Positions 1 through 36,045 of a stretch of DNA of 36,045 bases are shown one piece after another (positions within the stretch are counted from its first letter, which is position 1; each line of letters opens with the position of its first letter). Both the position numbers and the translations under genes were made by a program. The stretch comes from a virus, in IMG/VR virus record IMGVR_UViG_3300031965_000093, positions 1 to 36,045 of that record, one strand, 5' to 3'. A model generated the notes under the pieces. It saw only the letters and a list, made by a program, of their open reading frames with translations, was not told the origin of the DNA and did not search any database.

Positions 1-127
1 CCAGAATTTAAAACAGTCGCAGAAGCAATGGCGTGGAAAGGAAGTGATGACGAAAACATTATTAGCCCAGAAGATTGGAAAAATTGTATTCCACTTTTGG
101 ATGAGAGTTAATAACAAATAAATAATA
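1..127. repeat. Terminal overlap copy A, identical to 35919-36045. Bases 1-111 are the 3' end (TAA at 109-111) of the CDS 34647-36029.
   Basis: Both termini read ccagaatttaaaacagtcgc...gagagttaataacaaataaataata. I compared them base by base by eye. Confidence 0.9.
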
Positions 128-243
128 TGAAAGAAGAAATAAAAAGAATAAGAATAATGTTAGATATAGCTTTAATGGATAACAAAGAAATGTTAGAAGA
201 AAACATTAAGAATATTATAAATAAATTAAAACAAAAGAAATAA
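127..243 (+). CDS. Small hypothetical protein (38 aa, MKEEIKRIRIMLDIALMDNKEMLEENIKNIINKLKQKK)
   Basis: Below the ORF-track cutoff. ATG at 127 is preceded by the conserved junction string TAACAAATAAATAATATG, also found at 10579-10596. TAA at 241-243. Confidence 0.3.
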   Translation: MKEEIKRIRIMLDIALMDNKEMLEENIKNIINKLKQKK

Positions 244-329: not shown

Positions 330-578
330 ATGATTAAAAAAGATAAAATGTATTGTTTATCTGAAATGGTAGACGAAAAAATGTTTAATTGGATAAGCGA
401 TTATAAGTCTTATAGAAATTTAGTTGAAAAAGATTTTTTTAAAGAAAATATTTTACAGACGGAAACCACAGGTACAGGAGTTGGTAAAAGATATTACATA
501 AAAGGTCGAAATATTATTAAATTTATAAATAAATACGGCGATGGATTATCGCTAAGAAAAACCAATGAAAAAAAATAA
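330..578 (+). CDS. Hypothetical early protein (82 aa)
   Basis: ORF directly after the promoter-like element and overlapping the next gene start. No family motif recognised. An alternative start exists at M7 (348). Confidence 0.5.
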   Translation: MIKKDKMYCLSEMVDEKMFNWISDYKSYRNLVEKDFFKENILQTETTGTGVGKRYYIKGRNIIKFINKYGDGLSLRKTNEKK

Positions 579-1314
579 ACCAAAAATTAGAGAACATAAA
601 GAGATTCAAGTTTCAGAACCGAGAGAGATAACACAAGTAGAAACTTTTATATCTCAAGCGATCGCAAACAACGTCCCAGTTGAAACAATGGAAAAATTGC
701 TTGCTATGAGAAAAGAATTAAAGCAAGAAAGAGCAAAGGAATTATTTGATGAGTCTATGTCGGGATTTCAGGGAGAATGTCCTATTATTAAGAAAGGAAA
801 AGACGGAGGTAAAACAAAAGGAGGAATGGTTGCTTATAGATATGCCCCTCTTGATTCAATAGTAAGGCAAACTAAAGACTTGATTAAAAAACACGGATTT
901 AGTTATTCAATACAAACTCAAACAGGGGAAGGTAAGGTATCAGTAACCTGTAAAGTAAAACATGTTGCTGGGCATAGTGAAGAAAGCTCGGTTGAAGTAC
1001 CTTTGGGGGCAAATACAGGTATAATGTCTAGCTCTCAAGTGGTTGCTTCTGCATTAACTTTTGCTAAGAGATATGCTTTCAGTAATGCTTTCGGAATACT
1101 AACAAGCGATGATGATGATGATGCAAACGAAACCAAAAAAGCTGATAAAAAAGTTTATTCAAATGCTGAAAAACTTTATGGAGTTATTGTTAAGGAAGAA
1201 GATCTCGATAAACTAATCGAGTATTCAGAAAAAATTAAAGTTTCAGAACTTTACAACAAAGAAGAAAAGAAAATGTTACAAGACTTAATAACAAGTAAAA
1301 TAGACCATGATTAA
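565..1314 (+). CDS. erf: ERF-family single-strand annealing protein
   Basis: Motifs VAYRYAPLDSIV, HGFSYSIQT and ALTFAKRYAFSNAFGIL followed by DDDDD. This layout is typical of the ERF superfamily, and the gene is adjacent to an exonuclease. Confidence 0.8.
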   Translation: MKKNKPKIREHKEIQVSEPREITQVETFISQAIANNVPVETMEKLLAMRKELKQERAKELFDESMSGFQGECPIIKKGKDGGKTKGGMVAYRYAPLDSIVRQTKDLIKKHGFSYSIQTQTGEGKVSVTCKVKHVAGHSEESSVEVPLGANTGIMSSSQVVASALTFAKRYAFSNAFGILTSDDDDDANETKKADKKVYSNAEKLYGVIVKEEDLDKLIEYSEKIKVSELYNKEEKKMLQDLITSKIDHD

Positions 1315-1927
1315 AATTCACGATGTAGATCAAAGATCGACTGAATGGTTTGATCTAAGAAAAAAATACCCTCTAACAGCCAGCAAAGGATTAGCAATAG
1401 CAACTAATGGTTCTGGGCTTGAAACTCTTTGTTGGGAATCAGTTGTTAAAAGAATGTCTTTAAATGATGAATTTTCTTATACTAACGACAATACGGAAAG
1501 AGGAAATGAACTAGAGCAAGATGCTTTAGCCGTTTACGAGCTAGAAACAGGCAACACGGTTGGAATAATCGGATTTATAACTGATGAAGATATTTCAAAA
1601 GTCGGTGGTGCAAGTCCTGATGGCTGGATAGGAGAAGACGGTAATTTAGAAATAAAATGTCCGAGTGATGTTAAGTTTCTAAAACTTCTCGCTGAATACA
1701 AACAAACAGGAACTGTTAAAGTAGAAAGTGGGTACTATAACCAAATGCAAATGCAAATGCTATTCGGTAATAGAAAGTGGACTGATTATGTAATGTTTAA
1801 CCCAAACTTTAAAGAAAATATAATCATCGTCAGAGTATTAACAGACCCAGTTACTTTTGAAAAAATAAAAATCGGACTAAAAAAAGGTGAAGAAATTATC
1901 AACGAAATTGAGAATAAATTAAAATAA
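1307..1927 (+). CDS. YqaJ-like (lambda-exonuclease fold, PD-(D/E)XK) recombination exonuclease
   Basis: N-terminal QRSTEWFDLRKKYPLTASK, then ASPDG...LEIKCP (D...E-x-K). It overlaps the annealase gene. Confidence 0.85.
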   Translation: MIKIHDVDQRSTEWFDLRKKYPLTASKGLAIATNGSGLETLCWESVVKRMSLNDEFSYTNDNTERGNELEQDALAVYELETGNTVGIIGFITDEDISKVGGASPDGWIGEDGNLEIKCPSDVKFLKLLAEYKQTGTVKVESGYYNQMQMQMLFGNRKWTDYVMFNPNFKENIIIVRVLTDPVTFEKIKIGLKKGEEIINEIENKLK

Positions 1928-6095: not shown

Positions 6096-7203
6096 AAAAG
6101 TTTTAATTTTGGGAAGCTCTGGTTATATAGGAAATGCTCTTTTTGAATATTTACAAAATAAAGGATATGAAGTTAAGGGTGTTGATAATCAAATGAGAGA
6201 AAAAAATGTTGAATCAATCGGATCTAAGTCTATAACAAATAAAAAATATTTTCCTTTTCATCTTTTGGATATTGTAGAAGATAAAGATGATTTTAATTTG
6301 CTTATAAAAACATTTAAACCTGATGTAATTGTAAATCTAGCACACCAACCATCTGCTCCTTTTTCAATGATTGATTCTAAACACGCAATGGAAACTCAAA
6401 AAAATAATATTTTAGGGACTCTAAGTGTTTTATATGCCATAAAAGAGTATTGCCCTGATGCACATTTAATCCAACTAGGAACAGAGGGTGAATATTCTGC
6501 TGATTTATGGGATGGGAAAAAAATACCAGAGGGGAGCATAATGAAAGTATTTTTACCGAAAGAAAATATTGAATTTGACCAAGATAATTATGATGAGTGG
6601 GAAATCCCAACACCTCGCTACGGGGGAAGTTTCTACCACTTCTCAAAAATATATTCAGATTACAACATAGATTACGCTTGCAAACTTTGGGGAATAAAAG
6701 CAACAAATATTCAACAAGGAGTAATTTATTCTCACAGGTATAACACTAGACTTGATGTAGATAACTGGTTTGGAACAATAATTAATCGTTTTGTTGCACA
6801 GGCCGTATTGGGTATGCCATTAACAGTTTACGGAACAGGAGGACAAACAAGAGGATTTATTTGTTTACAAAACTCTCTTGAAGCCATTGAATTATTTATT
6901 GAAAACCCTGCCGACAAAGGAGAATTTAGAGTAATACACCAATCCACGGAGTCTTTGAATGTAATGGATATTGCAAAAATGATTCAGGAAAAAACTGGAT
7001 GTGAAATAAAATGTATTGAAAATCCTAGGATGGAAAAAGATAAAAATAATTTCACTTTTGACACTAGCACACTTGATAACCTAGGATTAAAACGTATTAA
7101 ATTTGAAGATGAGTTGCCTCATTTAATTAAAGTAATGGAAGAAAATAAAAATAATATTATCAAGGATGCTTTATCAATAGAAACATTAACAAAATGGAAA
7201 TAA
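6088..7203 (+). CDS. SQD1/SqdB/Agl3-like extended SDR (UDP-sulfoquinovose synthase homologue)
   Basis: GSSGYIGN Rossmann motif, VDNQMRE...SIGSKSIT, QPSAPFSMID, GTEGEYS, SFYHFSK (Y-H-x-x-K), WGIKATNIQQGVIYS, PLTVYGTGGQTRGF, GEFRV. These line up closely with plant SQD1 as I recall it. Confidence 0.8.
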   Translation: MNKKVLILGSSGYIGNALFEYLQNKGYEVKGVDNQMREKNVESIGSKSITNKKYFPFHLLDIVEDKDDFNLLIKTFKPDVIVNLAHQPSAPFSMIDSKHAMETQKNNILGTLSVLYAIKEYCPDAHLIQLGTEGEYSADLWDGKKIPEGSIMKVFLPKENIEFDQDNYDEWEIPTPRYGGSFYHFSKIYSDYNIDYACKLWGIKATNIQQGVIYSHRYNTRLDVDNWFGTIINRFVAQAVLGMPLTVYGTGGQTRGFICLQNSLEAIELFIENPADKGEFRVIHQSTESLNVMDIAKMIQEKTGCEIKCIENPRMEKDKNNFTFDTSTLDNLGLKRIKFEDELPHLIKVMEENKNNIIKDALSIETLTKWK

Positions 7204-9866: not shown

Positions 9867-10588
9867 AAATACTTATAACAGGATCGGAGGGTTATATAGG
9901 ATCTCGTCTAAAAAAGAAAATACAAGATTTAGGAATCGGGGAATTATTTTTAATTGATTTGAAAAAAGGTAATGATTTAATGACTGCTAAACTTCCTGAT
10001 GTAGATATTGTCTTTCATCTATCAGCACAATCCGGTGCAATTCCATCAATAGAAAATCCAATTTGGGATGCTAGGACAAATATTTTGACGACGATAAGAT
10101 TGGCAGAACACTATAAAGGAAAAGCAAAAATAATTTATACAACATCAGGCGGAGCAAAAGACCCTGAAAGTCCGTATGGTTTGAGCAAAAAAGTTGGAGA
10201 AGAATATTTAAAAATGATACATAACAATACAGTAATTTGTCGCCTATCTTCTATTTATGGAGGAAAAGATAGGGGCGTGGTCGATAATTTTATAAGAGAT
10301 GAAGTTCCTACAGTTTTTGGAGATGGTTCTGCTGTTAGAGATTTTGTCCATGTTGACGATATTATTGAAGGACTAATAAAAGCAATGGATTGGGAAGCCG
10401 TAGAATATGAAATGGGTAGTGGCATAGGAACTTCTGTAAAGGAAATTGCTGACGCTACTGGAAAACAAATACAATATTTACCAGTAAGAAAAGGAGAAAA
10501 ACAAGAAGCAATTTTGCAAAACACAACACCTAATTGGAAACCAGAAATCGAAGTCTTATTTTATATTAAAAGTTTAACTAACAAATAA
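9863..10588 (+). CDS. Short NAD-dependent sugar epimerase/dehydratase (GalE-like SDR)
   Basis: ILITGSEGYIGSRL glycine-rich motif and YGLSKKVGE (YxxxK). ATGA overlap with the GT6 gene. Confidence 0.7.
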   Translation: MKILITGSEGYIGSRLKKKIQDLGIGELFLIDLKKGNDLMTAKLPDVDIVFHLSAQSGAIPSIENPIWDARTNILTTIRLAEHYKGKAKIIYTTSGGAKDPESPYGLSKKVGEEYLKMIHNNTVICRLSSIYGGKDRGVVDNFIRDEVPTVFGDGSAVRDFVHVDDIIEGLIKAMDWEAVEYEMGSGIGTSVKEIADATGKQIQYLPVRKGEKQEAILQNTTPNWKPEIEVLFYIKSLTNK

Positions 10589-10593
10589 ATAAT

Positions 10594-10773
10594 ATGAGAG
10601 TTAAACCAGAAATAAAAGAAACAGAAAACTTTGGAAAAATCGTCAGAATTAGTGATGTTGAAGGTTTCGGCGATTGGTTAAGGGGACAAACAATACCCTT
10701 TTTAGAAAATGATGAAAATCCTGAAGATTGGGCTTATTATGGGGATTATTTAAATTTTATTGATAAAAATTAA
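10594..10773 (+). CDS. Small hypothetical protein (59 aa, MRVKPEIKETENFGKIVRISDVEGFGDWLRGQTIPFLENDENPEDWAYYGDYLNFIDKN)
   Basis: One codon below the track cutoff. The start is embedded in the conserved TAACAAATAAATAATATG junction. Confidence 0.5.
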   Translation: MRVKPEIKETENFGKIVRISDVEGFGDWLRGQTIPFLENDENPEDWAYYGDYLNFIDKN

Positions 10774-10789
10774 CTAACTAATAAATAAT

Positions 10790-10954
10790 ATGAAAGAAAA
10801 AATAAAAGAATCCGAAATTAGTACTTCTCTTATAGAGATTAACTTGAAGTATTCCGAGTGGCAGAATATGTATACATTCGGTCGCTGGTTTAATATGAGG
10901 ATTTTTAGCTTTATATTTCCAACTGTATTAAAAATAAACATTACAAGGGATTAA
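10790..10954 (+). CDS. Small hypothetical protein (54 aa)
   Basis: The ATG is preceded by AAATAATATG. It fills the gap between neighbouring ORFs. No motif seen. Confidence 0.3.
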   Translation: MKEKIKESEISTSLIEINLKYSEWQNMYTFGRWFNMRIFSFIFPTVLKINITRD

Positions 10955-18152: not shown

Positions 18153-18172
18153 AATTAAAAAAATATTATGGA
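18153..18172 (+). promoter_or_regulatory. Shared 20-nt translation-initiation region AATTAAAAAAATATTATGGA (also at 21501-21520)
   Basis: Identical 20-mers span the start codons of the capsid and tail-tube genes. There is no SD-like purine core. Confidence 0.6.
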
Positions 18173-19496
18173 CGAATTAAAAAAATTGATTGCAAAACTT
18201 TTGAAAAAGGGATTTGCGACTGCTTCTGAAAAGAAAGCAGTTAGAGATATAGTAAAGGAACTTGACGGAGATGAGAATGAAGAAGTAGTGGAAGAAGTTG
18301 AAAAAGTTGAGAATTTGCCAGAGGAAGAAGAAACTCCTGATGATACAGAAGTTGAGAAAGGTTTGAAGAAACTTTTGTCAAAAGCTGTTAAGGAAGTTTC
18401 TGAAGATGTGAAGTCAGAAGTATCTGCTCATGTCAGAAAAGAACTTGCTAAAATCAAGCAAGGAGATGGTGTTTACCAAAATGATGTTAAAGAAGCGAGA
18501 AAAGGTATCAATCAAAAAATGGTTGGTATGTGTAAGTCTTTGTTTAGCGGAAACGAAGTAGCAATGAAAGATTTAACAACTGATGCAACAGGTAGCCCAT
18601 ACGGTGGATATACAGTTGATACAGAATTGTCTGCAGAAATTAGACATCTTATTACTGAATACGGAGTAGCATCAAGAGAGATGAATGCTTTGCAACTTTC
18701 AAAGCATAACTACAAGGCAAATAACCTTGCAACAGACGTTGTTACTTATTGGGTAGATGAAGCAGGTTCAATTAAATCATCACAAGCTGTTCTAGGACAA
18801 GGAACACTTGATTTGAACAAGATTGCAACAATCGTTTCATTTACAAGTGAGTTGCTTGAAGATTCTGAAATTGACTGGGTATCATTCATCGGAGGTAGAG
18901 TAGCCGAAGCAATGGCAGAAATGGAAGACGAAGCATTCTTTAATGGAGATGGAACATCAACATACGGATCATTCACAGGTCTATTGAATAACACTTCTGT
19001 AAACGAAGTTGTAATGACAGGAACAACATTTGCATCACTTGATGCTGATGATTTGATTGATATGGTTGATTCTACACCATCAGGAGCATTAGCAAATGCT
19101 AAGTTCTACATGAACAGAACAATTATGTCACTTGTTAGAAAGTTGAAAGATAGTAATAACGATTACATCTATCAAAGACCTTCAGAGAGTGGTCCAGCTA
19201 CAATTTGGGGTTACCCAGTAGTATTGGTTGAGGTTATGCCTACAACTAGCGATACTGCGGCTGACACTTCATTAATCCTATTTGGAGATTTGAAGAAAGC
19301 TTGTATCTACGGATTCAAAGGAGGTATCAAGGCTGATATATTCCGTTCAGGTTCTGTTAGAAATTCAGGTGATTCAGCTGATGTTAACTTGATTACAACT
19401 GACAGAGAAGCTATCAGATGGACAAGGAGAGTTGGTTACTTGGCTATTTTGCCAACTGCTGTAACTAAACTTACAACTGCAACGGCTAGTGCGTAG
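18168..19496 (+). CDS. Major capsid protein, HK97 fold, with an N-terminal delta-like domain
   Basis: GGYTVDTELSAEIRHLITEYGVASREM, VTYWVDEAGSIKSS, SFTSELLEDSEIDW, EDEAFFNGDGT. It directly follows the protease. Confidence 0.9.
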   Translation: MDELKKLIAKLLKKGFATASEKKAVRDIVKELDGDENEEVVEEVEKVENLPEEEETPDDTEVEKGLKKLLSKAVKEVSEDVKSEVSAHVRKELAKIKQGDGVYQNDVKEARKGINQKMVGMCKSLFSGNEVAMKDLTTDATGSPYGGYTVDTELSAEIRHLITEYGVASREMNALQLSKHNYKANNLATDVVTYWVDEAGSIKSSQAVLGQGTLDLNKIATIVSFTSELLEDSEIDWVSFIGGRVAEAMAEMEDEAFFNGDGTSTYGSFTGLLNNTSVNEVVMTGTTFASLDADDLIDMVDSTPSGALANAKFYMNRTIMSLVRKLKDSNNDYIYQRPSESGPATIWGYPVVLVEVMPTTSDTAADTSLILFGDLKKACIYGFKGGIKADIFRSGSVRNSGDSADVNLITTDREAIRWTRRVGYLAILPTAVTKLTTATASA

Positions 19497-28631: not shown

Positions 28632-29120
28632 ATGATAAATCTAGCAACAATTAAAAAATATGTAAATGATTTAATTATTAAGTTAGATGAGGTTATTACA
28701 GCTCTCGGTAATATAGAAATAGATACAGAAGGTATTGATTTAAACACTGACGAAATAGAAGGTAAACTTGATATCTTAAATGCTACAGATTTCTCAACCT
28801 CAGAAAAGCAAGATGATATTATTGCCAAATTGGCGGAAGTTATTGATACCCCTGAATTTTTCGAGGATACTTCTTTCGTCACTGGGGATAGCCCTGTAAC
28901 ACTTGACCTAAACACTGCTCTTGGAAGAAACGCCACACAAGGGTATATCATCAATGACGGAGCTGGCAATTTCACTGTGTCTTTCTCAACTGACGGAATA
29001 GCTTTCGGTGATGCGATTACAATGAAGAAAAATGAGATTTTAGAATTTGAAAAAATAAGCGTTGATTCTATAAAAATAACTTGGGTAAGCGACAGTGCTT
29101 ATCGTGTTTCAGTGATATGA
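28632..29120 (+). CDS. Hypothetical protein (162 aa)
   Basis: Track ORF. ATGA overlap with the fibre gene. Confidence 0.5.
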   Translation: MINLATIKKYVNDLIIKLDEVITALGNIEIDTEGIDLNTDEIEGKLDILNATDFSTSEKQDDIIAKLAEVIDTPEFFEDTSFVTGDSPVTLDLNTALGRNATQGYIINDGAGNFTVSFSTDGIAFGDAITMKKNEILEFEKISVDSIKITWVSDSAYRVSVI

Positions 29121-31291
29121 TAAAACTAAAAAAACAATTTATAGATGACCATTCACTGCTAGATAATCTTGCAGTAGATGACCACACCCAATACGCTCTC
29201 CTCGCAGGTAGGGCAGGTGGGCAGACTTTAATCGGGGGAACAGCTAGCGGAGAGAATCTCATATTGCAATCCACTTCTCACGCCACTAAAGGCAAAATCC
29301 TTTTTGGCACTTCGGCTTATGATGAGGTGAATAACAGGTTGGGGATTGGTGAAACAGCCCCAGGGGCACAACTTCAAGTCAATGCAGTCACTGCTTCAGT
29401 AATTGCTCAAATCATCAAAGGTGCAACATCTCAATCTGCTAACTTATCTGAATGGAGAAATTCAACAGGTACTGTTCTAACAAGAGTCTCACCAACAGGA
29501 ATAATCAGCTCTGGTAGCGGAGTTACTGATATTCTTAAACTTCAAGGAACTTCTGGAAATGGAACAGCGACAAGTCCAGCCATTCAATATCTAGTCGGAA
29601 ATAATGGGGCGACTATTGCAGGAACTTTTTTAAATAATGGAAATTTTGGCTTGGATACTGTTGCACCAAGTGAAATACTTTCTTTCGGAAATGCTCAAGC
29701 TAGGAAGATTTGGATTGAAACTACTGATTATAACACTGTCGGTAGGGAATTGACTGTTTCAGCTGGGAGTACCATAAATACTGACCCATCTGATGGTACT
29801 TTTAATTCTCTTAATCAAACAGTCCGTCAATGGTATGGTGTTGCTTCCGCACCTAACGGAGATATTTATGCTTGTGTTTATAATGGCGACATCTACATGC
29901 AGACTGGCGGAACAGGGGACTTTATAGCTTTAAGCCAAACAACTAGGGCATGGCAAGTAATAGCAGCTGCTCCAAATGGTGATGTTTATTGTGCTGATGC
30001 TGGTAGAGATATTTACAAACAAACTGGTGGCACAGGTAACTTTATCGCTCTTGGGCAAACTAATAGAAACTGGAAAGGATTAACAGTCAATCCAATTACA
30101 GGTGATGTTTATGCTTGTGTTCAGAATGGAGATATTTATATGCAAACCGCTGGGGCTGGTAATTTTAACGCTCTAAGCCAGACTGCTAGAAATTATTGGG
30201 GTATGGCTGTCAATCCGCTCACGGGTGATGTTTATGTTGGGGTGTATGGTGGTGATATTTATATGCAAACAGGTGGCACAGGTACTTTCAATGCTTTAGG
30301 GCAAACTAATAGAGCCTGGTTTGGATTAGGTTCTGACCCTAGTGGAAATATCTATGCAACTGTTGACGGAATAAATATATTTAAACAAACAGATGGAAGT
30401 GGTGCGTTTGTTTCTTTAAATCAAACAGCTAGACAGTGGTATGGTATCGCTGGTGCACCAAATGGTGATGTTTATGCTACAGTATGGAATAGTGGTAATA
30501 TTTATAGACTAAACGCTTTATCAGGTGGTACTGCAGACCTTGCAGGTGGAGACTTAATCCTTTCATCTGGACAAGGCAAAGGAACGGGCACAAGTACGGT
30601 TTATATAAAAACAGGAACGACTCTCACCACTGGCACATCACTGCAAACATTATCAAACAAGGTGGCTGTGTATGGAAATGGTAATACTCATTTATTATTA
30701 GACAATCAAAAACTTTTATTCGGTGCAGGGCAAGACGCTAGTATTCTTTATGACGGAACAGACTTACATATTGACTCAGCCTTAGTCGGAACTGGTATTA
30801 TTAGTTTAGATAGCGATACAAAACCCGTTGGTCGTTTAATTGTTCCTATGGGTGAAATAAACTATTTTGATACTACAGGAACAGCCATAACTATATCAAC
30901 TCAATCAGACGGCTCATCTAATATGGTGCTAGTCAATCCAACCACAGCTTTATCTTCGGGAGAATATGAATTTGATAATGGAGGGGGGAATACTGGCAGA
31001 TTAAGATACATAGGAGAAACAACGAAGATGTTCCACATTGCTTGTACAATTTCATTTTCACCAGCAACAGCAAATGATGAATTTGTTATCGGTATAGCTA
31101 AAAATGGAACTGTTATCAGTCAATCCAAAGTTATCAATATGGCGAGAGGTATCGGTGAAACCTCAAGCACTGCATTACACATTATGGCAGAATTGGCAAC
31201 TGACGATTATTTGGAATTATATGTCGGGAATCTTAGTACAACTGGAAACTTTACAATTAAAACAATTGCAATGTTTGCTATGGGATTATAA
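29117..31291 (+). CDS. Tail fibre with a conserved N-terminal anchor, six ~40-aa propeller-like repeats, and a C1q/TNF-like jelly-roll tip
   Basis: The track start at 29081 overlaps the upstream gene. The ATG at 29117 gives an ATGA junction (MIKLKKQF...). Motifs DDHTQYALLAGRAGGQTLIGGT, then the repeats, then a C-terminal FHIACTISF...IGIAKNG...LELYVGN...FAMG pattern. Confidence 0.75.
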   Translation: MIKLKKQFIDDHSLLDNLAVDDHTQYALLAGRAGGQTLIGGTASGENLILQSTSHATKGKILFGTSAYDEVNNRLGIGETAPGAQLQVNAVTASVIAQIIKGATSQSANLSEWRNSTGTVLTRVSPTGIISSGSGVTDILKLQGTSGNGTATSPAIQYLVGNNGATIAGTFLNNGNFGLDTVAPSEILSFGNAQARKIWIETTDYNTVGRELTVSAGSTINTDPSDGTFNSLNQTVRQWYGVASAPNGDIYACVYNGDIYMQTGGTGDFIALSQTTRAWQVIAAAPNGDVYCADAGRDIYKQTGGTGNFIALGQTNRNWKGLTVNPITGDVYACVQNGDIYMQTAGAGNFNALSQTARNYWGMAVNPLTGDVYVGVYGGDIYMQTGGTGTFNALGQTNRAWFGLGSDPSGNIYATVDGINIFKQTDGSGAFVSLNQTARQWYGIAGAPNGDVYATVWNSGNIYRLNALSGGTADLAGGDLILSSGQGKGTGTSTVYIKTGTTLTTGTSLQTLSNKVAVYGNGNTHLLLDNQKLLFGAGQDASILYDGTDLHIDSALVGTGIISLDSDTKPVGRLIVPMGEINYFDTTGTAITISTQSDGSSNMVLVNPTTALSSGEYEFDNGGGNTGRLRYIGETTKMFHIACTISFSPATANDEFVIGIAKNGTVISQSKVINMARGIGETSSTALHIMAELATDDYLELYVGNLSTTGNFTIKTIAMFAMGL
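29801..30529 (+). repeat. Six tandem ~120-bp coding repeats (consensus F-x-A-L-x-Q-T-x-R-x-W-x-G-[ILV]-A-x-x-P-x-G-D-[IV]-Y-A-x-V-x-x-G-D-I-Y-x-Q-T-G-G-T-G)
   Basis: Read from the translation: FNSLNQTVRQWYGVASAPNGDIYACVYNGDIYMQTGGTGD, followed by five further diverged copies. Confidence 0.8.
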
Positions 31292-31673: not shown

Positions 31674-31712
31674 AAAGAAATAATATTATAAGCTAATCAA
31701 ATAAATAATATG
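31674..31712. repeat. 39-bp perfect direct repeat, copy 2
   Basis: Identical to 234-272. Here its terminal ATG is the start of 31710-31913. Confidence 0.85.
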
Positions 31713-31913
31713 GAAAAAGAATCACCAAAAGAAATAGAACTAAACGATTCAGAAATTGAAGCCTTACAAAATAAAAAGAGGAAAGCAAGAATTGAACTTT
31801 GCTCAAAAGAAATACAAGATGTTTTAGACAAGCACGAATGTGGTATCGAGGTTGAGGTTTTAATAGGAATAAATAAAATTGAACCTATCATTAAAGTTTT
31901 GAGTAAAAAATAG
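31710..31913 (+). CDS. Hypothetical small protein (67 aa)
   Basis: Track ORF. The start lies within the conserved AAATAATATG junction. Confidence 0.5.
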   Translation: MEKESPKEIELNDSEIEALQNKKRKARIELCSKEIQDVLDKHECGIEVEVLIGINKIEPIIKVLSKK

Positions 31914-32262: not shown

Positions 32263-33099
32263 ATGAAAATACATAAACAATACTCAACAGGAGCAAATAA
32301 ATCACCTTATGATATAAGAACATTTACTTATATACCAGATAAGGCTAACATAAAGGGAGGTAAAAAATGGGAAGAAATTGATATTGAAAATCAAAGGAGA
32401 GTCGGAATTTGTACTGGGATATCCGTTTCCATGCGTGCTAGAAAACATTTTGGTATTGATTTTTCAGATGACTTTCAATACTTAATGCAAAAAAGGTGGG
32501 AACAAAATTGGAACGAGGGTTCTTCAATCTTCGTGGCTTTAACTATTGGAAAAACTATTGGATTTCTACCACAAAGCGAATGGAAACACACGACTTTGGA
32601 AGACAGAGATTTACCTTATACAGAATACATAAAAAAACTTCAAGCGATACCAGAAGAAGAAATAAAAAGGTTATCATATATTGCTTCAAAATATAAAATA
32701 AAAGCCTATGCATCTATTCCAGTAACTCGTGATAATTTAGCAAATGCTATTGATGAACAAGGAGCTTTGCCAGTTAGATTTTCAGTAGGAAATGAATGGT
32801 GGACTGAACCTATTGAGCCATTAAGACCACCACAGAATGTTATAAGCGGACACGCAGTTAATCTAACTAATTATTATGGTGGTAGTTTTAGAATAGCAAA
32901 CTCTTGGGGGGTAAATTGGGCAGATAATGGAACAGCTTATTTTCTACTGTCGCAGTATCGTCCAACAGAAGCGTGGGGGGTTTGGTTTGCAGGTGTGCCT
33001 AAGGAAATTGAAGAACAAATTGAAAACAGGGCAACAATTATAGGGAAGATACTTGATTTATTACAACAAATTATTATTTTAGTCGCTAAATTGACTTAA
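32263..33099 (+). CDS. Papain-family (C1) cysteine peptidase, putative endolysin
   Basis: QRRVGIC (Q-x5-C spacing as in papain Q19/C25), SGHAVNL (His), and FRIANSWGVNWADNGTAYF (N-S-W-G...W...G). Confidence 0.65.
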   Translation: MKIHKQYSTGANKSPYDIRTFTYIPDKANIKGGKKWEEIDIENQRRVGICTGISVSMRARKHFGIDFSDDFQYLMQKRWEQNWNEGSSIFVALTIGKTIGFLPQSEWKHTTLEDRDLPYTEYIKKLQAIPEEEIKRLSYIASKYKIKAYASIPVTRDNLANAIDEQGALPVRFSVGNEWWTEPIEPLRPPQNVISGHAVNLTNYYGGSFRIANSWGVNWADNGTAYFLLSQYRPTEAWGVWFAGVPKEIEEQIENRATIIGKILDLLQQIIILVAKLT

Positions 33100-33135
33100 A
33101 ATTTGTTGAAAGTTTATTAGTTAATAAAATAGATT

Positions 33136-33312
33136 ATGAAAAAAATTTTAAAATCAAGAACCGTGTGGGTGATTGCGTTTATGTTTATTATGGGAGGTTT
33201 TCAAGCGATTGAAGTGACAATGACACCGCAAGTCTTTTTGTTTGTTCAAGGAGGATTATCACTTCTTGCAACTTATTTCAAGATAAACCCATCGCAAGAC
33301 TATACAAAATAA
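33136..33312 (+). CDS. Small two-TM membrane protein, holin candidate (58 aa)
   Basis: MKKILKSRTVWVIAFMFIMGGFQAIEVTMTPQVFLFVQGGLSLLATYFKINPSQDYTK. It has two hydrophobic helices and a charged C-terminus. It is below the track cutoff and adjacent to the lysin. Confidence 0.4.
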   Translation: MKKILKSRTVWVIAFMFIMGGFQAIEVTMTPQVFLFVQGGLSLLATYFKINPSQDYTK

Positions 33313-33364
33313 ATGTGTTATACTTCTAGCACTAATAATTTTTACAGATACTATTAAAAAATAA

Positions 33365-33373
33365 TGTTATAAT
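33365..33373 (+). promoter_or_regulatory. Extended -10 promoter element TGTTATAAT (second copy)
   Basis: Same 9-mer and upstream TTAAAAAATAA context as 5834-5842. It is intergenic. Confidence 0.45.
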
Positions 33374-33379
33374 ATTGTT

Positions 33380-33454
33380 GAGGGTTTATTGGTTTAGCCC
33401 TCTCTATATTTGCATCGATGCCACGAAGCCCCTGTATAGGGGTTTTTGTGTTTT
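33380..33454 (+). ncRNA. Candidate ~75-nt small RNA (promoter, hairpin, 10-bp palindrome, terminator)
   Basis: Hairpin at 33380-33402 (gagggtt/agccctc), palindrome GCATCGATGC at 33412-33421, terminator at 33426-33454. No ORF and not tRNA-like. Confidence 0.3.
33426..33454 (+). terminator. Rho-independent terminator
   Basis: aagcccct-gtat-aggggttt stem-loop followed by tttttgtgtttt. It marks the end of the late/lysis block. Confidence 0.75.
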
Positions 33455-33483
33455 AAAAGTTATTAACAGATTTTATTTGCTTG

Positions 33484-33505
33484 TTGACAGTAATATGGTA
33501 ACATA
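33484..33505 (+). promoter_or_regulatory. Promoter-like 22-nt element TTGACAGTAATATGGTAACATA with a consensus -35
   Basis: 21/22 identical to 303-324. It lies just downstream of the terminator and upstream of 33560. Confidence 0.5.
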
Positions 33506-33559
33506 TAACTAATGGTCGAATTAAAAACCAATTTAAAATAAATTTTATTAAAGAAAATC

Positions 33560-34051
33560 ATGAAAAACGAAATATTAAATATTTTTGAACCAACCGAACA
33601 AATAAGAAGTTGGAAAAGAACCAAAAAAGAAAACAACACATCATTATATATTTTTCTTTCGGTCATAGTGTTATATTTTTTGTTTGGATATTGCCAAAGT
33701 GTTTTCGGAACGATTAGATATGTTGCCGAAGCTGAAGAAGAAAACTTTTACACAATGCAAGCAAGCATAACAGCATACAGCGAATTAGACAGTTGCCACA
33801 ATAAAAATTGCGAGATGGCTAGCACGAAGAGAGCCTATGTAGGAGCTATTGCTTGCCCTCGTGAAATATCCTTAGAAACAAAAGTAATAGTCAAAGGAAC
33901 TACTTACACTTGCGAAGACCGAACAGCAAAATGGGTAGAAGAAAAATACCCAAACACCTTTGACATTTTCTTTGGATATGGCGAAGAAGCCCACATCAAA
34001 GCATTAGAATTTGGAAGACAAAATTTATTAGTTAAGATTTTAAATAAATAA
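33560..34051 (+). CDS. Membrane-anchored 3D-domain (YuiC/MltA C-terminal-like) cell-wall protein
   Basis: N-terminal TM helix (LYIFLSVIVLYFLFGY), then ITAYS...MAST...GAIACPREISLETKVIV...YTCEDRTAK...FDIFFG...FGRQNLLVKIL. Confidence 0.6.
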   Translation: MKNEILNIFEPTEQIRSWKRTKKENNTSLYIFLSVIVLYFLFGYCQSVFGTIRYVAEAEEENFYTMQASITAYSELDSCHNKNCEMASTKRAYVGAIACPREISLETKVIVKGTTYTCEDRTAKWVEEKYPNTFDIFFGYGEEAHIKALEFGRQNLLVKILNK

Positions 34052-34055
34052 AATA

Positions 34056-34292
34056 ATGGAAAACTTAACCAACAAAATAGAAGATTTAAAACTACTAGCA
34101 GATTATTGTGGATTATCATTTTCTGGGATAAATGAAGATGGTTATCCTGAATTTACTGGAACATCAAAACAACAATCAGATTTCGAAGCAATTAAAGATA
34201 ACGAGGTCTATCAAGATGACGAAGGTTTTTATATTGAAACAGAAGATGAAGGTGAAAATCAATTTATTATAAGTAAAATTTATATCAACTAA
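34056..34292 (+). CDS. Highly acidic small protein (78 aa)
   Basis: By hand count, 19 D/E versus 5 K/R, for example YQDDEGFYIETEDEGENQF. Confidence 0.55.
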   Translation: MENLTNKIEDLKLLADYCGLSFSGINEDGYPEFTGTSKQQSDFEAIKDNEVYQDDEGFYIETEDEGENQFIISKIYIN

Positions 34293-34303
34293 CAATAAAT
34301 AAT

Positions 34304-34654
34304 ATGAAATATAAAAGAAATGGAGACCATTATCTCCACCCAATAGAAAACTTACCAAAAGGATTAACAAAAATAGAACATAAAAAAAATTTCGTCTTCG
34401 GAACAGGCGAAGCAAGTAATCATTATCATACCATTGTCTCTGATAGAGTAGATGATTTTGACATTTATCAGGACGAGAAAGGAAGATATTATTTTGTAGT
34501 AAAAACTGACGATGTAAAATGCGGACACTTTGAAGGTAATTCAAATAAAACAGCCGACCACGAAACTATTCCATTACAAAAGAAAATTTATAAGCAAGTT
34601 CTTGAAAGGGAGTTAGATTTTTCAACAGCTATTGAAAGAAATGTAATTGACTAA
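34304..34654 (+). CDS. Hypothetical protein (116 aa) with a GEASNHYH motif
   Basis: Track ORF. The start lies in the AAATAATATG junction. The family is not recognised with confidence. Confidence 0.55.
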   Translation: MKYKRNGDHYLHPIENLPKGLTKIEHKKNFVFGTGEASNHYHTIVSDRVDDFDIYQDEKGRYYFVVKTDDVKCGHFEGNSNKTADHETIPLQKKIYKQVLERELDFSTAIERNVID

Positions 34655-36029
34655 AAATATGATTACAAAATTAAACACAAAACAAGAACAAGCAATTCAA
34701 CCGTTTGTTAAAAAATGGACCGATAGAATTTTAAGGACGGAACAAACAGACGAAGAAATTAAAGAAAACGTTAAAAATATTTATCGTATTGCTGGTTTAC
34801 AAGAACCAAAAGAAGTATGGATAATGGATAGTATGCTTGGTGTTCAGTATGCTTGTAATTTTTTAAACCAAAACATCCACGAAAACATCCACCAGAAAAT
34901 GAAACAGAACATCTTCCAGAACATCAAACGGAACATCTACCGGAACATCCTCCAGAACATCGACCAGAACATCAAACAGAACATCTACCGGAACATCGGC
35001 CAGAACATCGGCCAGAACATCGCCCAGAACATCGTCCAGACCATCGGCCAGAAAATCCTCGAGAACATCCGCCAGAACATCGACCAGAACATCAAACAGA
35101 AAATCCTCGAGAACATCGACCAGAACATCAAACAGAACATCAAACGGAACATCTACCGGAACATCCTCCAGAACATCGACCAGAACATCGACCAGAACAT
35201 CAAACAGAACATCAAACAGAAAATCCTCGAGAACATCTACCAGAACATCTACCAGAACATCGACCAGAACATCAAACAGAACATCAAACAGAAAATGAAA
35301 CAGAACATCTTCCAGAACATCAACCCGTTAGATTATTTTATCACTTCGTGGAATGAAGCTTCTTGGCTACAATGGTATGTTTATCAATTATTCTATTTCG
35401 AAATAGGACTTCTAAAAGAAGATAAATATTCAAAATTATTGAGAGGTTATATCAATAATGTTATAGATATATGGTCAGTTGTCTACTTTGATGAAATTTC
35501 TATTGTTTCCCGAAAACCAAAAATTAAACAAAATCAAGACCAAAGACTACATTCAACAAATTCACCAGCAGTATCGTTTATTGATGGATATGAGTTGTTT
35601 TATATCAACGGAATTAGTTTTGAAAAAGAACTTTGGGAAAAAATAACTTCAAAAAAAATAACATTCAAAGAAGTGTTGGATATTGCAGATGTGGACCAAA
35701 GAAATCAAGCACTTATGTTTGTAGGTGATGAAGAGAGAGATAAATGGCTGGAATATGTAAAAGCAGAAATAATTGATACTTACGAAAAACAAACAATTAA
35801 CGGAAATCCTGTTTATTATAAACTCTACAAAATCCCGAAAAATGAAATATTTTCAACCGATGTATATGCAATGTGGTATACCTGTCCGAGTACTAATAAA
35901 CAGAATTTCAGCCGTGTCCCAGAATTTAAAACAGTCGCAGAAGCAATGGCGTGGAAAGGAAGTGATGACGAAAACATTATTAGCCCAGAAGATTGGAAAA
36001 ATTGTATTCCACTTTTGGATGAGAGTTAA
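34647..36029 (+). CDS. Tetrapeptide-repeat protein: a 74-aa N-terminal domain, 38 x (Q-N-I-x), and a ~235-aa C-terminal domain
   Basis: Translation is uninterrupted through the array. The flanking domains are non-repetitive (N-terminal LNTKQEQAIQPFVKKWTDRIL..., C-terminal ...LHSTNSPAVSFIDGYELFYINGISF...). Confidence 0.8.
   Translation: MTKNMITKLNTKQEQAIQPFVKKWTDRILRTEQTDEEIKENVKNIYRIAGLQEPKEVWIMDSMLGVQYACNFLNQNIHENIHQKMKQNIFQNIKRNIYRNILQNIDQNIKQNIYRNIGQNIGQNIAQNIVQTIGQKILENIRQNIDQNIKQKILENIDQNIKQNIKRNIYRNILQNIDQNIDQNIKQNIKQKILENIYQNIYQNIDQNIKQNIKQKMKQNIFQNINPLDYFITSWNEASWLQWYVYQLFYFEIGLLKEDKYSKLLRGYINNVIDIWSVVYFDEISIVSRKPKIKQNQDQRLHSTNSPAVSFIDGYELFYINGISFEKELWEKITSKKITFKEVLDIADVDQRNQALMFVGDEERDKWLEYVKAEIIDTYEKQTINGNPVYYKLYKIPKNEIFSTDVYAMWYTCPSTNKQNFSRVPEFKTVAEAMAWKGSDDENIISPEDWKNCIPLLDES
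34869..35324 (+). repeat. 38 tandem 12-bp units, consensus C(A/G)GAACATCNNN
   Basis: Units were enumerated by hand from 34869 (caaaacatccac) to 35313 (cagaacatcaac). Internal higher-order duplications are 34917-34973 = 35133-35189 and 34893-34927 = 35289-35323. Confidence 0.95.
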
Positions 36030-36045
36030 TAACAAATAAATAATA
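35919..36045. repeat. Terminal overlap copy B (identical to 1-127)
   Basis: See the first feature. Confidence 0.9.

What the first reader, a model, noticed from the sequence alone, without database searches (positions are those of the whole stretch)
34869..35324. The 12-bp array is written in GC-ending codons foreign to the genome, pointing to a DNA-level constraint or recent expansion
Inside the array Gln is CAG (37 of 38 first positions are CAG, CGG or GAG). Asn is AAC, Ile is ATC, and Asp/Tyr/Leu/Gly/Phe/His are GAC/TAC/CTC/GGC/TTC/CAC. The flanks of the same gene, and the rest of the genome, prefer CAA, AAT, ATT/ATA and GAT. The 9-nt core C(A/G)GAACATC is therefore conserved at synonymous sites 38 times, with an exact 12-bp phase. 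Long internal identities (57 nt at 34917-34973 = 35133-35189; 35 nt at 34893-34927 = 35289-35323) show ongoing unit and segment duplication. Three explanations are possible: (i) recent in-frame slippage expansion of a unit acquired from a GC-richer source, acting as a length-variable contingency locus; (ii) the repeats double as protein-binding iterons (origin, partition or packaging site); (iii) both. CTCGAG occurs wherever ...ATCCTC GAGAAC... units abut.
Basis: seen in the sequence. Interest (0 to 1): 0.65.

Follow-up and report, generated by a model that had tools for sequence, protein, structure and literature searches.

The report
Hypervariable tetrapeptide-repeat array in phage gene
The 12-bp array is the coding DNA for a fast-evolving (Gln-Asn-Ile-x)x38 linker in a phage protein of unknown function (DUF6745 family), and its odd codons are mainly the signature of one repeat unit being copied again and again, not of a protein-binding DNA site.

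Summary
Window 34869-35324 holds 38 in-frame 12-bp units whose third codon positions are 88% G/C, against 22% in the genome and 23% in the flanks of the same gene.

The array links a roughly 70-residue N-domain to a DUF6745 C-domain. About half of the 162 family proteins in hand (83) carry such a repeat linker at this place, with 6-60 units of types such as SNIx, DAVx, SQLx and QQVx.

Each array uses essentially one codon per conserved residue, but that codon differs between relatives. Array GC3 ranges from 0.00 to 0.98. The same Q-N-I peptide is also written CAA AAT ATC and CAA AAT ATT. No DNA motif is therefore conserved, and the iteron reading fails.

Variation within arrays sits at bases 1-2 of the x codon, with almost no synonymous variation. 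This fits concerted evolution plus diversification of x.

Arrays change faster than anything else. Two phage genomes with no mismatch over about 15.5 kb differ only by a 120-bp, 10-unit indel bounded by a 54-nt direct repeat.

A modest family-wide excess of G/C-ending codons (P about 4e-5) and the capsid gene's preference for NNC suggest that translational selection contributes.

Verdict: a hypervariable coding minisatellite. Protein function is unknown.

The parts
34659..36029 (+). DUF6745-family gene (456 aa from ATG 34659; the open frame starts at TTG 34647). Architecture: N-domain, tetrapeptide array, C-domain. Its last 111 nt are repeated at window 1-111 because the contig is circular.
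   Evidence: ORF. Homologues P0002-P0016 share the same architecture. Pfam PF20530 E 3.2e-5; phrog_31813 E 3e-11. Terminal overlap.
34659..34868 (+). N-terminal helical domain (about 70 aa) with genome-typical codons (GC3 0.19).
   Evidence: AF2 pLDDT is 77-91.
34869..35324 (+). 38 tandem 12-bp units, consensus CAG AAC ATC NNC, encoding (Q/R/E)-N-I-x. GC3 is 0.88. The x slot holds K11, D6, Y5, L5, G3, H2, F2, A, V, R and N.
35325..36026 (+). C-terminal DUF6745 domain (234 aa), genome-typical codons (GC3 0.24). The family has 1,488 clusters at 50% identity.
   Evidence: AF2 pLDDT is 80-94. Best BFVD match is the DUF6745 protein of Microcystis phage Ma-LMM01, E 1.2e-15.
34917..34973 (+). 57-nt block (K-RNIY-RNIL-QNID-QNI) duplicated exactly at 35133-35189: a multi-unit segmental duplication.
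   Evidence: only 0.2% of unit-order shuffles reach 57 nt.
35133..35189 (+). Second copy of the 57-nt block.
34893..34927 (+). 35-nt block (QKMK-QNIF-QNI) repeated exactly at 35289-35323, so the same motif sits near both ends of the array.
35289..35323 (+). Second copy of the 35-nt block.
34869..34892 (+). Edge units 1-2 (CAA AAC ATC CAC, GAA AAC ATC CAC). They are the only units with the genome-typical CAA/GAA and are probably older, un-homogenised copies.
   Evidence: The interpretation as older copies is an inference.
34304..34654 (+). 116-aa ORF directly upstream, syntenic with DUF6745 genes in relatives. Possible partner; function unknown.
   Evidence: 115-116-aa ORF upstream in L072, L088 and L091-L094. 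tblastx 44-46% identity. No family hit.
565..1927 (+). Erf-like single-strand annealing protein (565-1314) and YqaJ-like exonuclease (1307-1927), about 600 nt downstream of the gene on the circular map. Context only: plausible (inferred) catalysts of recombination between short repeats.
   Evidence: PHROG and Pfam hits. Circularity.

Best explanation
The array is a coding minisatellite. It forms the repeat linker of a phage early-region protein whose N-domain and DUF6745 C-domain are joined, in about half of the family proteins in hand, by a run of period-4 peptide units of the form [semi-variable]-[N/Q/S/A]-[I/V/L]-[hypervariable x].

The array evolves by replication slippage and unequal recombination between units. 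The phage's own Erf/YqaJ annealing system may help; that step is inferred. Units are continually lost, duplicated and copied over one another, which is concerted evolution. All units therefore descend from a very recent founder unit and share its synonymous bases. Here the founder was CAG AAC ATC NNC.

Purifying selection keeps the N-I core. New amino acids at x arise by single-base changes at codon positions 1-2 and are retained. The result is many x variants (NAC, NGC, NTC, and AAA derived from AAC) with no synonymous variation.

The 'foreign' GC-ending codons are thus mainly a founder effect multiplied 38 times. There is probably a secondary push from translational selection for C-ending Asn, Ile, Asp and Tyr codons in a stretch that reuses the same codons every fourth position.

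The DNA repeat has no function as a binding site. What is selected is the peptide repeat, its length and its x residues. The rapid turnover and the W/R/G/E/Y/D-rich x positions in the family suggest a variable interaction surface or adjustable spacer engaged in phage-host conflict. That last step is inference, and the protein's function is unknown.
For: 1. The repeat is conserved at protein level. All 15 first homologues, about 40 of 50 viral loci and 83 of 162 family proteins carry period-4 arrays at the same place.

2. Each array uses one codon per conserved slot, but the codon differs between lineages. Examples: L004 GCT GTT 28/28; L029 GCG GTC 48/48; L034 CAG GTC 50/50; L014 CAA CTT 38/38. 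Array GC3 runs from 0.00 to 0.98.

3. There is a whole-array synonymous switch between moderately diverged relatives (77% C-domain DNA identity). L072 is all ATC and L075 is all ATT.

4. Across 43 arrays, within-array nucleotide diversity is 0.56 and 0.33 at x-codon positions 1 and 2. It is 0.07-0.12 (median 0) at every third position. There are 293 extra amino-acid types against 53 extra synonymous codon types; for the window array the figures are 14 against 1.

5. Every variant unit in the window is one mutational step from the consensus: CGG and GAG from CAG, AAA and ACC from AAC, ATG from ATC.

6. Block duplications are present in the window.

7. Arrays are the fastest-changing locus.
- L088 and L091: 0 mismatches in 4.7 kb upstream, 9.9 kb downstream and the gene flanks. 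The only difference is a 120-bp indel bounded by a 54-nt direct repeat.
- L092 and L093: 1 mismatch in 1,044 nt of gene flanks, but 31 against 9 units.
- L036 and L037: 25 against 35 units, in a different order.

8. A translational component is plausible.
- Consensus array codons are G/C-ending more often than local usage predicts: 66 observed against 46.6 expected, P = 4e-5, over 27 clusters.
- Seven of eight NI-type clusters use ATC.
- In this genome the major-head gene has the highest NNC share (0.41 against 0.24), ATC at 0.41 against 0.12, and no CAG.

9. Erf and YqaJ recombination genes lie about 600 nt downstream.
Against: - No close relative of this particular phage exists in the databases; the best is 54% identical. 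Copy-number variation is therefore shown for relatives, not for this genome.
- All comparisons rest on metagenome assemblies. An assembler could collapse a repeat. Against this, the long and short forms were each recovered in independent samples, and internal repeats are shorter than the k-mers used.
- A founder effect alone gives only about 1e-3 for four G/C-ending slots at genome usage. The ATC preference across NI-type arrays also argues that something beyond drift acts on synonymous sites, so a DNA- or codon-level force is not fully excluded.
- CAG, CGG and CTC are not preferred codons here, so translational selection cannot explain the whole pattern.
- Diversifying selection at x is inferred from the excess of non-synonymous variation. 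Focused hypermutation would look the same.
- The structure of the array is unresolved: AF2 pLDDT is 31-48.
Confidence: 0.8

Rival explanations
1. Synonymous sites in the array are under direct selection. Candidates are translational speed or accuracy at heavily reused Asn/Ile codons, avoidance of AT-only self-complementary AATATT units and A-runs, or GC-biased repair during frequent intra-array recombination. On this view selection, not descent, is the main reason for the GC-ending codons.
For: - Family-wide excess of G/C-ending consensus codons: 66 against 46.6 expected, P = 4e-5. In AT-rich loci the figures are 31 against 17.3.
- ATC is used in 7 of 8 independent NI-type clusters, although ATC is only 5-28% of Ile codons locally.
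- The capsid gene prefers NNC and ATC.
- Recoding the array with genome-preferred codons gives a more structured RNA, -65.5 against -40.4 kcal/mol.
Against: - Many arrays in AT-rich genomes are AT-ending: L092 GC3 0.00, L004 0.00, L014 0.22, L002 0.22.
- The x2 slot shows no enrichment: 8 observed against 11.6 expected.
- The observed RNA energy is not extreme among synonymous recodings; 43-59% of them are as unstructured.
- CAG, CGG and CTC are non-preferred codons here.
- L072 to L075 switched all units to ATT.
- Overall this is best seen as a contributor, not the main cause.
Confidence: 0.3
2. A dedicated diversification mechanism targets the x codon. This could be focused hypermutation or recombinase-driven cassette shuffling, making the array a programmed variable binding surface analogous to DGR targets.
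For: - Diversity is concentrated at 2-3 specific bases per 12-nt unit across 43 arrays.
- The x set in most relatives is the mutational neighbourhood NGG plus GAG, giving R, G, W and E.
- In the window the set is NNC, a codon class from which no stop can arise by changes at positions 1-2.
- Unit order is fully scrambled between near-identical genes L036 and L037.
- A recombinase pair lies next to the gene.
Against: - There is no second (template) copy of the array anywhere in the circular genome.
- The adenines of the AAC ATC core are invariant, unlike adenine-directed DGR mutagenesis.
- Identical arrays were recovered from different samples: L073 = L074 at 99% flank identity, and L078 = L079.
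- Selection plus ordinary slippage explains the data without a new mechanism.
Confidence: 0.1
3. The array, or its founder unit, was imported by recombination from a GC-richer relative.
For: - L077 (locus GC 0.41) carries the identical CAG AAC ATC core.
- DUF6745 genes are mosaic: P0163 and P0166 share about 95% identity over the last roughly 125 aa only.
- L036 and L037 share the gene but not its flanks.
Against: - The x codons differ: NGG in L077, NNC here.
- The edge units keep CAA and GAA.
- AAC ATC arrays are the norm in equally AT-rich relatives: L072, L081, L088, L036.
- The exact DNA array was not found in IMG/VR; 21 hits were all 2-unit chance matches in unrelated genes.
Confidence: 0.07
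4. The repeats double as protein-binding iterons for an origin, partition or packaging site.
For: Only the regular 12-bp phasing and the strong local composition anomaly.
Against: - The DNA unit is not conserved between relatives, while the peptide period is.
- The array always lies inside an intact ORF, and all variation is non-synonymous.
- Some family members have a non-repetitive linker at the same place.
- There is no GC-skew inflection.
- The motif is absent elsewhere in the genome.
- A 12-bp spacing is out of phase with the DNA helix (own knowledge).
Confidence: 0.03

Closest known systems
Pfam DUF6745 (PF20530) / PHROG 31813 proteins, e.g. gp174 of Microcystis phage Ma-LMM01
   Same: Homologous C-terminal domain and N-terminal helical domain. 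Located in the early / DNA-metabolism region of tailed phages. Best structural match E 1.2e-15.
   Different: Ma-LMM01 and the MaMV phages have a non-repetitive linker of about 70 aa where this protein has 38 tetrapeptide units. No function is known for any member, and no paper in the searched library mentions the family.
Central (NANP)n repeat of the Plasmodium falciparum circumsporozoite protein (own knowledge; not tested here)
   Same: 12-bp units encoding a tetrapeptide, about 40 copies. Length polymorphism by slipped-strand mispairing or unequal exchange. Repeat homogeneity with a dearth of silent variation.
   Different: It is a eukaryotic surface antigen under immune selection and has no sequence relationship to this protein. 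Its units vary little in sequence, whereas here one position per unit is hypervariable.
In-frame coding tandem repeats of bacterial surface proteins (staphylococcal Ser-Asp repeat regions, streptococcal M and alpha-C proteins) and collagen-like Gly-X-Y repeats of phage tail fibres (own knowledge)
   Same: Copy-number variation by recombination or slippage. The repeats act as variable-length stalks or spacers between folded domains. Concerted evolution.
   Different: Those are exposed structural or adhesin proteins. This one is a non-structural early-region phage protein with a much shorter unit and a single hypervariable residue per unit.
Diversity-generating retroelement (DGR) variable regions
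   Same: Variation is confined to the first two bases of particular codons with a fixed third base. NNC codons cannot mutate to stop codons at those positions. It occurs in a phage gene.
   Different: There is no template repeat, and the array is the only copy in the genome. Core adenines are invariant. The architecture is a tandem array rather than a C-type-lectin fold.
Pentapeptide-repeat proteins (PF00805)
   Same: The residue pattern [S/A/N/D]-[N/Q/D]-[L/I/V]-x resembles A(D/N)LXX with one residue missing. Both form long tandem arrays.
   Different: The period is 4, not 5. There is no Pfam match. AF2 predicts no beta-helix, only low-confidence helix or coil.

Membership tests
DUF6745 (PF20530) protein family | Significant match of the C-terminal domain to the family profile | tested here: inconclusive
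   The direct Pfam hit is E 3.2e-5 at 23.8 bits, below the gathering score of 27.
DUF6745 (PF20530) protein family | Homology to accepted members by sequence and by fold | tested here: met
   Homologues at 46-59% identity carry precomputed PF20530 hits. phrog_31813 E 3e-11. Foldseek E 1.2e-15 to the Ma-LMM01 DUF6745 protein. 1,488 family clusters found by phmmer.
Coding minisatellite under concerted evolution | Head-to-tail units, in frame, within an intact ORF | tested here: met
   38 units of 12 bp, all in frame 0.
Coding minisatellite under concerted evolution | Units within an array are more alike (including at synonymous sites) than arrays of related genomes | tested here: met
   One codon per slot within arrays, different codons between arrays. 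L072 is all ATC and L075 is all ATT.
Coding minisatellite under concerted evolution | Copy-number change between otherwise near-identical genomes, with junctions in direct repeats | tested here: met
   Shown in relatives: L088/L091 have a 120-bp indel with 54-nt junction homology; L092/L093 have 31 against 9 units; L036/L037. Not testable for this phage itself, which has no close relative.
Phase-variable contingency locus (simple-sequence repeat switch) | A repeat-number change shifts the frame or promoter spacing and turns expression on or off | tested here: not met
   The unit is 12 bp (9 bp in one sub-branch), always a multiple of 3. All of the roughly 50 arrays with DNA in hand lie within an open reading frame continuous with the C-domain.
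Iterons / origin, partition or packaging repeats | The DNA motif is conserved among related replicons | tested here: not met
   Units differ completely between relatives: CAGAACATC, TCAAACATC, GATGCTGTA, TCACAACTT and others.
Iterons / origin, partition or packaging repeats | Non-coding location next to an initiator or partition gene, with compositional signs of an origin | tested here: not met
   The array lies inside an ORF. GC skew is uniformly positive with no turning point. No motif copies occur elsewhere.
Iterons / origin, partition or packaging repeats | Specific binding by a replication or partition protein | not testable with these tools
   Needs EMSA or ChIP.
Diversity-generating retroelement target | A template repeat near-identical to the variable region, plus a reverse transcriptase | tested here: not met
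   No second copy of the array exists in the 35.9-kb circular genome. None of the roughly 30 ORFs scanned hit a reverse transcriptase, but not every ORF was scanned.
Diversity-generating retroelement target | Variation at adenine positions only | tested here: not met
   The adenines of CAG AAC ATC are essentially invariant, while the x codon varies at both of its first two bases.
Pentapeptide-repeat family | Five-residue period A(D/N)LXX and a match to PF00805 | tested here: not met
   The period is 4 and there is no PF00805 hit.

The most novel reading that the evidence does not exclude
DUF6745 proteins may be a widespread, undescribed class of phage hypervariable proteins. On this reading the tetrapeptide array is a programmable interaction surface: one variable residue per unit, with unit number and order reshuffled by the phage's own annealing recombinase or by a focused mutational process. 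Phages would use it to track fast-evolving host targets or to escape defence recognition. It would be a recombination-based counterpart of DGRs.
Probability: 0.12. Interest if true: 0.85.

Novelty: new variant of a known kind. Interest (0 to 1): 0.5.

Why it matters
The codon anomaly itself has an ordinary population-genetic cause: repeat homogenisation. That removes the case for a cryptic origin or binding site.

Following it up exposed something less ordinary. A large phage protein family (at least 1,488 clusters at 50% identity) has a linker that is often a hypervariable coding minisatellite, and no literature on it was found in the library searched. The array can be the only difference between otherwise identical phage genomes. 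Its variation is almost purely amino-acid-changing at one residue per four.

Apart from tail fibres and DGR targets, such loci in phages are, to my knowledge, rarely described. They are natural candidates for host-phage conflict interfaces, markers for strain-level tracking of phages in metagenomes, and hotspots of assembly error.

The case also cautions against treating repeated codons as independent evidence of constraint at synonymous sites.

Tried and rejected
- mRNA-structure avoidance. The array RNA folds at -40.4 kcal/mol, which is ordinary among synonymous recodings (mean -42; 43-59% are as weakly folded). Rejected as the cause.
- Exact DNA array elsewhere. CAGAACATCNNNCAGAACATC in IMG/VR gave 21 loci, all 2-unit chance matches in unrelated proteins.
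- Phage tRNAs matching the array codons: none found.
- Rfam: no RNA family in 33000-36045.
- Fold assignment. The PDB Foldseek search gave nothing below E 0.05. AF2 leaves the array at pLDDT 31-48 in two models, so helix, coil and beta cannot be distinguished.
- Pfam CTD9, gp5 beta-helix, phrog_430 and PADLOC LeoBC hits lie entirely in the repeat and are sub-threshold. I treated them as low-complexity artefacts.
- Cultured-phage population test. The Ma-LMM01 / MaMV isolates carry DUF6745 without an array, so they say nothing about copy number.
- Host. The genome-contig scan gave only 2 MAG contigs labelled uncultured Gammaproteobacteria.
- Nucleotide search of the phage collection found no relative of this genome.
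- Literature. No paper mentions DUF6745, and two repeat-related searches gave nothing relevant.
- The antisense ORF 34985-35152, (MFWx)n, is a by-product of the repeat.
Full report
**1. What is in the sequence**

Window 34869-35324 is a perfect-phase tandem array of 38 twelve-base units (TRF: period 12, 38.2 copies). Every unit is in frame with the ORF 34647/34659-36029 on the + strand. The units encode (Q/R/E)-(N/K/T)-(I/M)-x.

The codon anomaly is real.
- Third-position G+C is 0.88 in the array. It is 0.215 in 37 other ORFs and 0.19/0.24 in the N- and C-terminal parts of the same gene.
- In the array versus the genome: CAG 28/29 against 18%, AAC 33/33 against 27%, ATC 36/36 against 12%.
- Asp, Tyr, Leu, Gly, Phe and His are all C-ending in the array.
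- The array also inverts the genome's strand bias. Its GC skew is about -0.35, against a uniform +0.2 elsewhere.

The 57-nt and 35-nt internal identities are exact. The 57-nt one is longer than in 99.8% of random unit orders. CTCGAG occurs three times, only in the array.

- 36, not 37, first codons are CAG, CGG or GAG.
- The exact 9-mer C(A/G)GAACATC occurs 27 times, not 38.
- Lys is AAA in all 16 cases.

The contig is a circular assembly: 1-127 equals 35919-36045. The 127-nt overlap is longer than any repeat inside the array, so the unit order should be reliable.

**2. What the gene is**

The product (456 aa) has three parts: an N-terminal helical domain of about 70 residues, the 152-residue array, and a 234-residue C-domain.
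- The C-domain matches Pfam DUF6745, but below the gathering score (E 3.2e-5, 23.8 bits against 27).
- It matches PHROG 31813 (E 3e-11).
- Its best structural match is the DUF6745 protein of Microcystis phage Ma-LMM01 (E 1.2e-15).
- Nothing in the PDB resembles it.
- phmmer finds 1,488 family clusters at 50% identity.
- No paper in the library mentions the family.

The window is a 35.9-kb tailed-phage genome with all genes on one strand. Terminase, portal, major head, tape-measure and tail-fibre genes were identified.

On the circular map the DUF6745 gene lies after the presumed lysis region. It is about 600 nt upstream of an Erf-like annealing protein and a YqaJ-like exonuclease.

In relatives the gene sits among early and DNA-metabolism genes: YqaJ, VRR-NUC, PD-(D/E)XK, UvrD, methyltransferase and uracil-DNA glycosylase. 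A 115-116-aa ORF directly upstream is syntenic in several relatives.

**3. The repeat is a protein-level feature of the family**

All 15 first homologues have a period-4 repeat between the same two domains. So do about 40 of 50 viral loci and 83 of 162 family proteins.

The units differ in sequence: SNIx, QNIx, NNIx, DAVx, SAVx, ASVx, SQLx, DQVx, QQVx, NNLx and TNLx. Arrays hold 6-60 units. One sub-branch has period-3 S-A-x arrays. Some members, including Ma-LMM01, have a non-repetitive linker instead.

The pattern is [semi-variable]-[N/Q/S/A]-[V/I/L]-[hypervariable]. Over 83 arrays the hypervariable slot is R 22%, G 20%, W 16%, E 11%, then D and Y.

AlphaFold models of this protein and of a short-array homologue give confident N- and C-domains (pLDDT 80-94). 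They leave the array at pLDDT 31-48, as a nominal helix or coil. Its structure is therefore unknown.

**4.

I obtained DNA for about 55 arrays. Within each array, every conserved residue is written with essentially one codon. Which codon is used differs from lineage to lineage.
- Val is GTT, GTC, GTA or GTG.
- Ala is GCT, GCG, GCA or GCC.
- Gln is CAA or CAG.
- Asn is AAT or AAC.
- Leu is CTT or CTG.

Array GC3 runs from 0.00 (L004 and L092, both in AT-rich genomes) to 0.98 (L077).

The same Q-N-I peptide is written in several ways.

| Locus | Codons for Q-N-I |
|---|---|
| L078 | CAA AAT ATC |
| L076 | CAA AAT/AAC ATT |
| L080, L081 | CAA AAC ATC |
| L077 and this window | CAG AAC ATC |

L072 and L075 are moderately diverged relatives (77% C-domain DNA identity). 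They differ by a synonymous change in every unit, all ATC against all ATT. That is concerted evolution in action.

Four further points agree with this.
- CAGAACATC is absent outside the array.
- The exact DNA array is not found in IMG/VR.
- There is no skew inflection.
- There is no Rfam match.

**5. Pattern of variation**

I measured within-array nucleotide diversity across 43 arrays.
- It is 0.56 and 0.33 at positions 1 and 2 of the hypervariable codon.
- It is 0.32 at position 2 of the neighbouring semi-variable codon.
- It is 0.07-0.12 (median 0) at all third positions.

Summed over arrays, there are 293 extra amino-acid types against 53 extra synonymous codon types. For this window's array the figures are 14 against 1.

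In the window, every variant is one step from CAG AAC ATC NNC:
- CGG and GAG from CAG
- AAA and ACC from AAC
- ATG from ATC
- x = GAC, AAC, TAC, CAC, GGC, CGC, GCC, GTC, CTC, TTC, and AAA from AAC

The only internal departures from G/C endings are therefore amino-acid-changing. The two 5' edge units retain the genome-typical CAA and GAA. This is expected if edge units escape homogenisation and the interior descends from a founder that had acquired CAG.

In most relatives the x codon is NGG or GAG, so the shared third base is G. Here it is C.

The excess of non-synonymous over synonymous variation implies one of two things. Either selection retains new x residues in very young arrays, or mutation is focused on those bases. 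The data cannot separate these. I favour selection, because no template copy or other dedicated machinery is evident.

**6. Rate of change**

- L088 and L091 are the same 38-kb phage assembled from two samples. They show 0 mismatches in 4.7 kb upstream, 9.9 kb downstream and the non-repeat parts of the gene. The only difference is a 120-bp, 10-unit in-frame indel bounded by a 54-nt direct repeat. After subtracting assumed assembler end-overlaps of 55 nt (SPAdes-style contig) and 141 nt (k141 contig), the contig lengths also differ by exactly 120. The long form was recovered identically in two further samples.
- L092 and L093 have 1 mismatch in 1,044 nt of gene flanks but 31 against 9 units. 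Each form was seen in at least two contigs.
- L036 and L037 have near-identical flanks. Their arrays have 25 and 35 units in a completely different order.
- Conversely, L073 = L074 (about 99% identical over roughly 5.7 kb overall) and L078 = L079 have identical arrays. Change is therefore fast but not continuous.

For this window's phage itself no close relative exists; the best is 54% identical. Heterogeneity here is inferred, not shown.

**7. Is anything left to explain at synonymous sites?**

Treating the 152 codons as independent gives 10^-109, but the units are copies. The real sample is about four codon choices, with a joint probability of about 1e-3 under genome usage. That is unusual but not extraordinary.

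I compared consensus array codons with local codon usage across 27 clusters at 60% identity.
- Overall there is a moderate excess of G/C endings: 66 observed against 46.6 expected, P = 4e-5. In AT-rich loci the figures are 31 against 17.3.
- The excess comes from the hydrophobic slot (19 against 10.2) and the x slot (23 against 12.7).
- The x2 slot shows none (8 against 11.6).
- NI-type arrays use ATC in 7 of 8 clusters.

In this genome the major-head gene has the highest share of C-ending NNY codons (0.41 against 0.24). Its ATC share is 0.41 against 0.12, and it has no CAG. AAC, ATC, GAC and TAC therefore look like translationally preferred codons, and CAG does not.

My conclusion is that descent explains the uniformity. 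Translational selection plausibly biases which founder succeeds for Asn and Ile. CAG, CGG and CTC are hitch-hikers.

The G ending of x codons in relatives may follow from the frequent Trp (TGG only) combined with single-step interconversion. That is an inference.

An mRNA-structure explanation found no support. Biased gene conversion and avoidance of AATATT or A-runs remain untested.

**8. Comparison with known systems**

The locus behaves like classical in-frame coding minisatellites. Examples are the (NANP)n repeat of the Plasmodium circumsporozoite protein, the repeat regions of Gram-positive surface proteins, and collagen-like repeats in phage fibres (own knowledge).

It is not a phase-variation switch, because the units are multiples of 3. 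It is not an iteron array. It is not a DGR target, because there is no template and the adenines are invariant. It is not a pentapeptide-repeat protein, because the period is 4.

It belongs to the DUF6745 family by homology and fold, although the direct Pfam score is just under threshold.

The novel elements are the setting, the anatomy and the scale.
- Setting: a non-structural, early-region phage protein.
- Anatomy: one hypervariable residue per four, with a fixed third base.
- Scale: more than a thousand clusters, with no literature on the family found in the library searched.

**9. Verdict**

It is wrong on a foreign GC-rich origin and on iterons.

The best explanation is concerted evolution of a hypervariable coding minisatellite (confidence about 0.8), with a probable minor contribution from codon selection. 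The protein's function is unknown. A role as a variable interaction surface or spacer in phage-host conflict is an inference.

Interest is moderate. The codon puzzle is solved by ordinary means, but the family-wide hypervariable array deserves follow-up.

Noticed in passing
window 1-127 and 35919-36045: Exact 127-nt terminal overlap. The contig is a circular (or circularly permuted) complete genome of 35,918 bp. The last 111 nt of the DUF6745 gene are therefore also present at the window start.
   Followed up: partly
window 112-144, 6220-6249, 10579-10611, 10775-10807; 234-276 and 31674-31716: A recurrent motif TAAC(A/T)AATAAATAATATG lies immediately before start codons, including two 43-nt copies that are 98% identical. 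It is probably a shared promoter or translation-initiation element without a Shine-Dalgarno sequence.
   Followed up: no
window 29858-30497 (inside ORF 29081-31291): Four to five diverged tandem copies of a 120-123-bp (about 41 aa) unit lie in the tail-fibre-like gene. This is a second, older coding repeat in the genome.
   Followed up: no
window 34304-34654: A 116-aa ORF directly upstream of the DUF6745 gene is conserved in the same position in relatives with both SNI-type and DAV-type arrays (L072, L088, L091-L094). It has no family match in Pfam, PHROGs, NCBIfam or PADLOC. It may be a functional partner.
   Followed up: partly
window 565-1927: Erf-like single-strand annealing protein and YqaJ-like exonuclease lie just downstream of the array gene on the circular map. 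A YqaJ gene also follows the homologue in L080.
   Followed up: partly
P0163 (L088) versus P0166 (L092): DUF6745 genes are mosaic. The last roughly 125 residues are about 95% identical between an SNI-array gene and a DAV-array gene whose N-domains share only about 20% identity. L036 and L037 share the gene at about 99% identity but not the surrounding DNA.
   Followed up: partly
P0188, P0189, P0036, P0039, P0047, P0050: A sub-branch of the family has period-3 arrays (S-A-x, Q-A-x, T-A-x; 9-bp units) at the same place. The x set is again R/G/W.
   Followed up: no
window 18168-19496: The major head protein gene has the highest share of C-ending NNY codons in the genome (0.41 against 0.24; ATC 0.41 against 0.12) and no CAG. 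This is a sign of translational codon preference in this phage-host pair.
   Followed up: partly
L088 13488-15475; L092 8452-9936; L093 2956-4434: Related 38-kb phages encode Cpn60 (GroEL-like) chaperonins. L088 also has a weak Cpn10 hit.
   Followed up: no
window 34985-35152 (- strand): A 55-aa antisense ORF (MFWx)n runs through the array. It is a mechanical by-product of the repeat and not evidence of a gene.
   Followed up: yes
window 32263-33099: A 278-aa ORF before a 58-aa membrane-like ORF has only a sub-threshold papain-family (Peptidase_C1) hit. It may be an unusual endolysin or protease.
   Followed up: no
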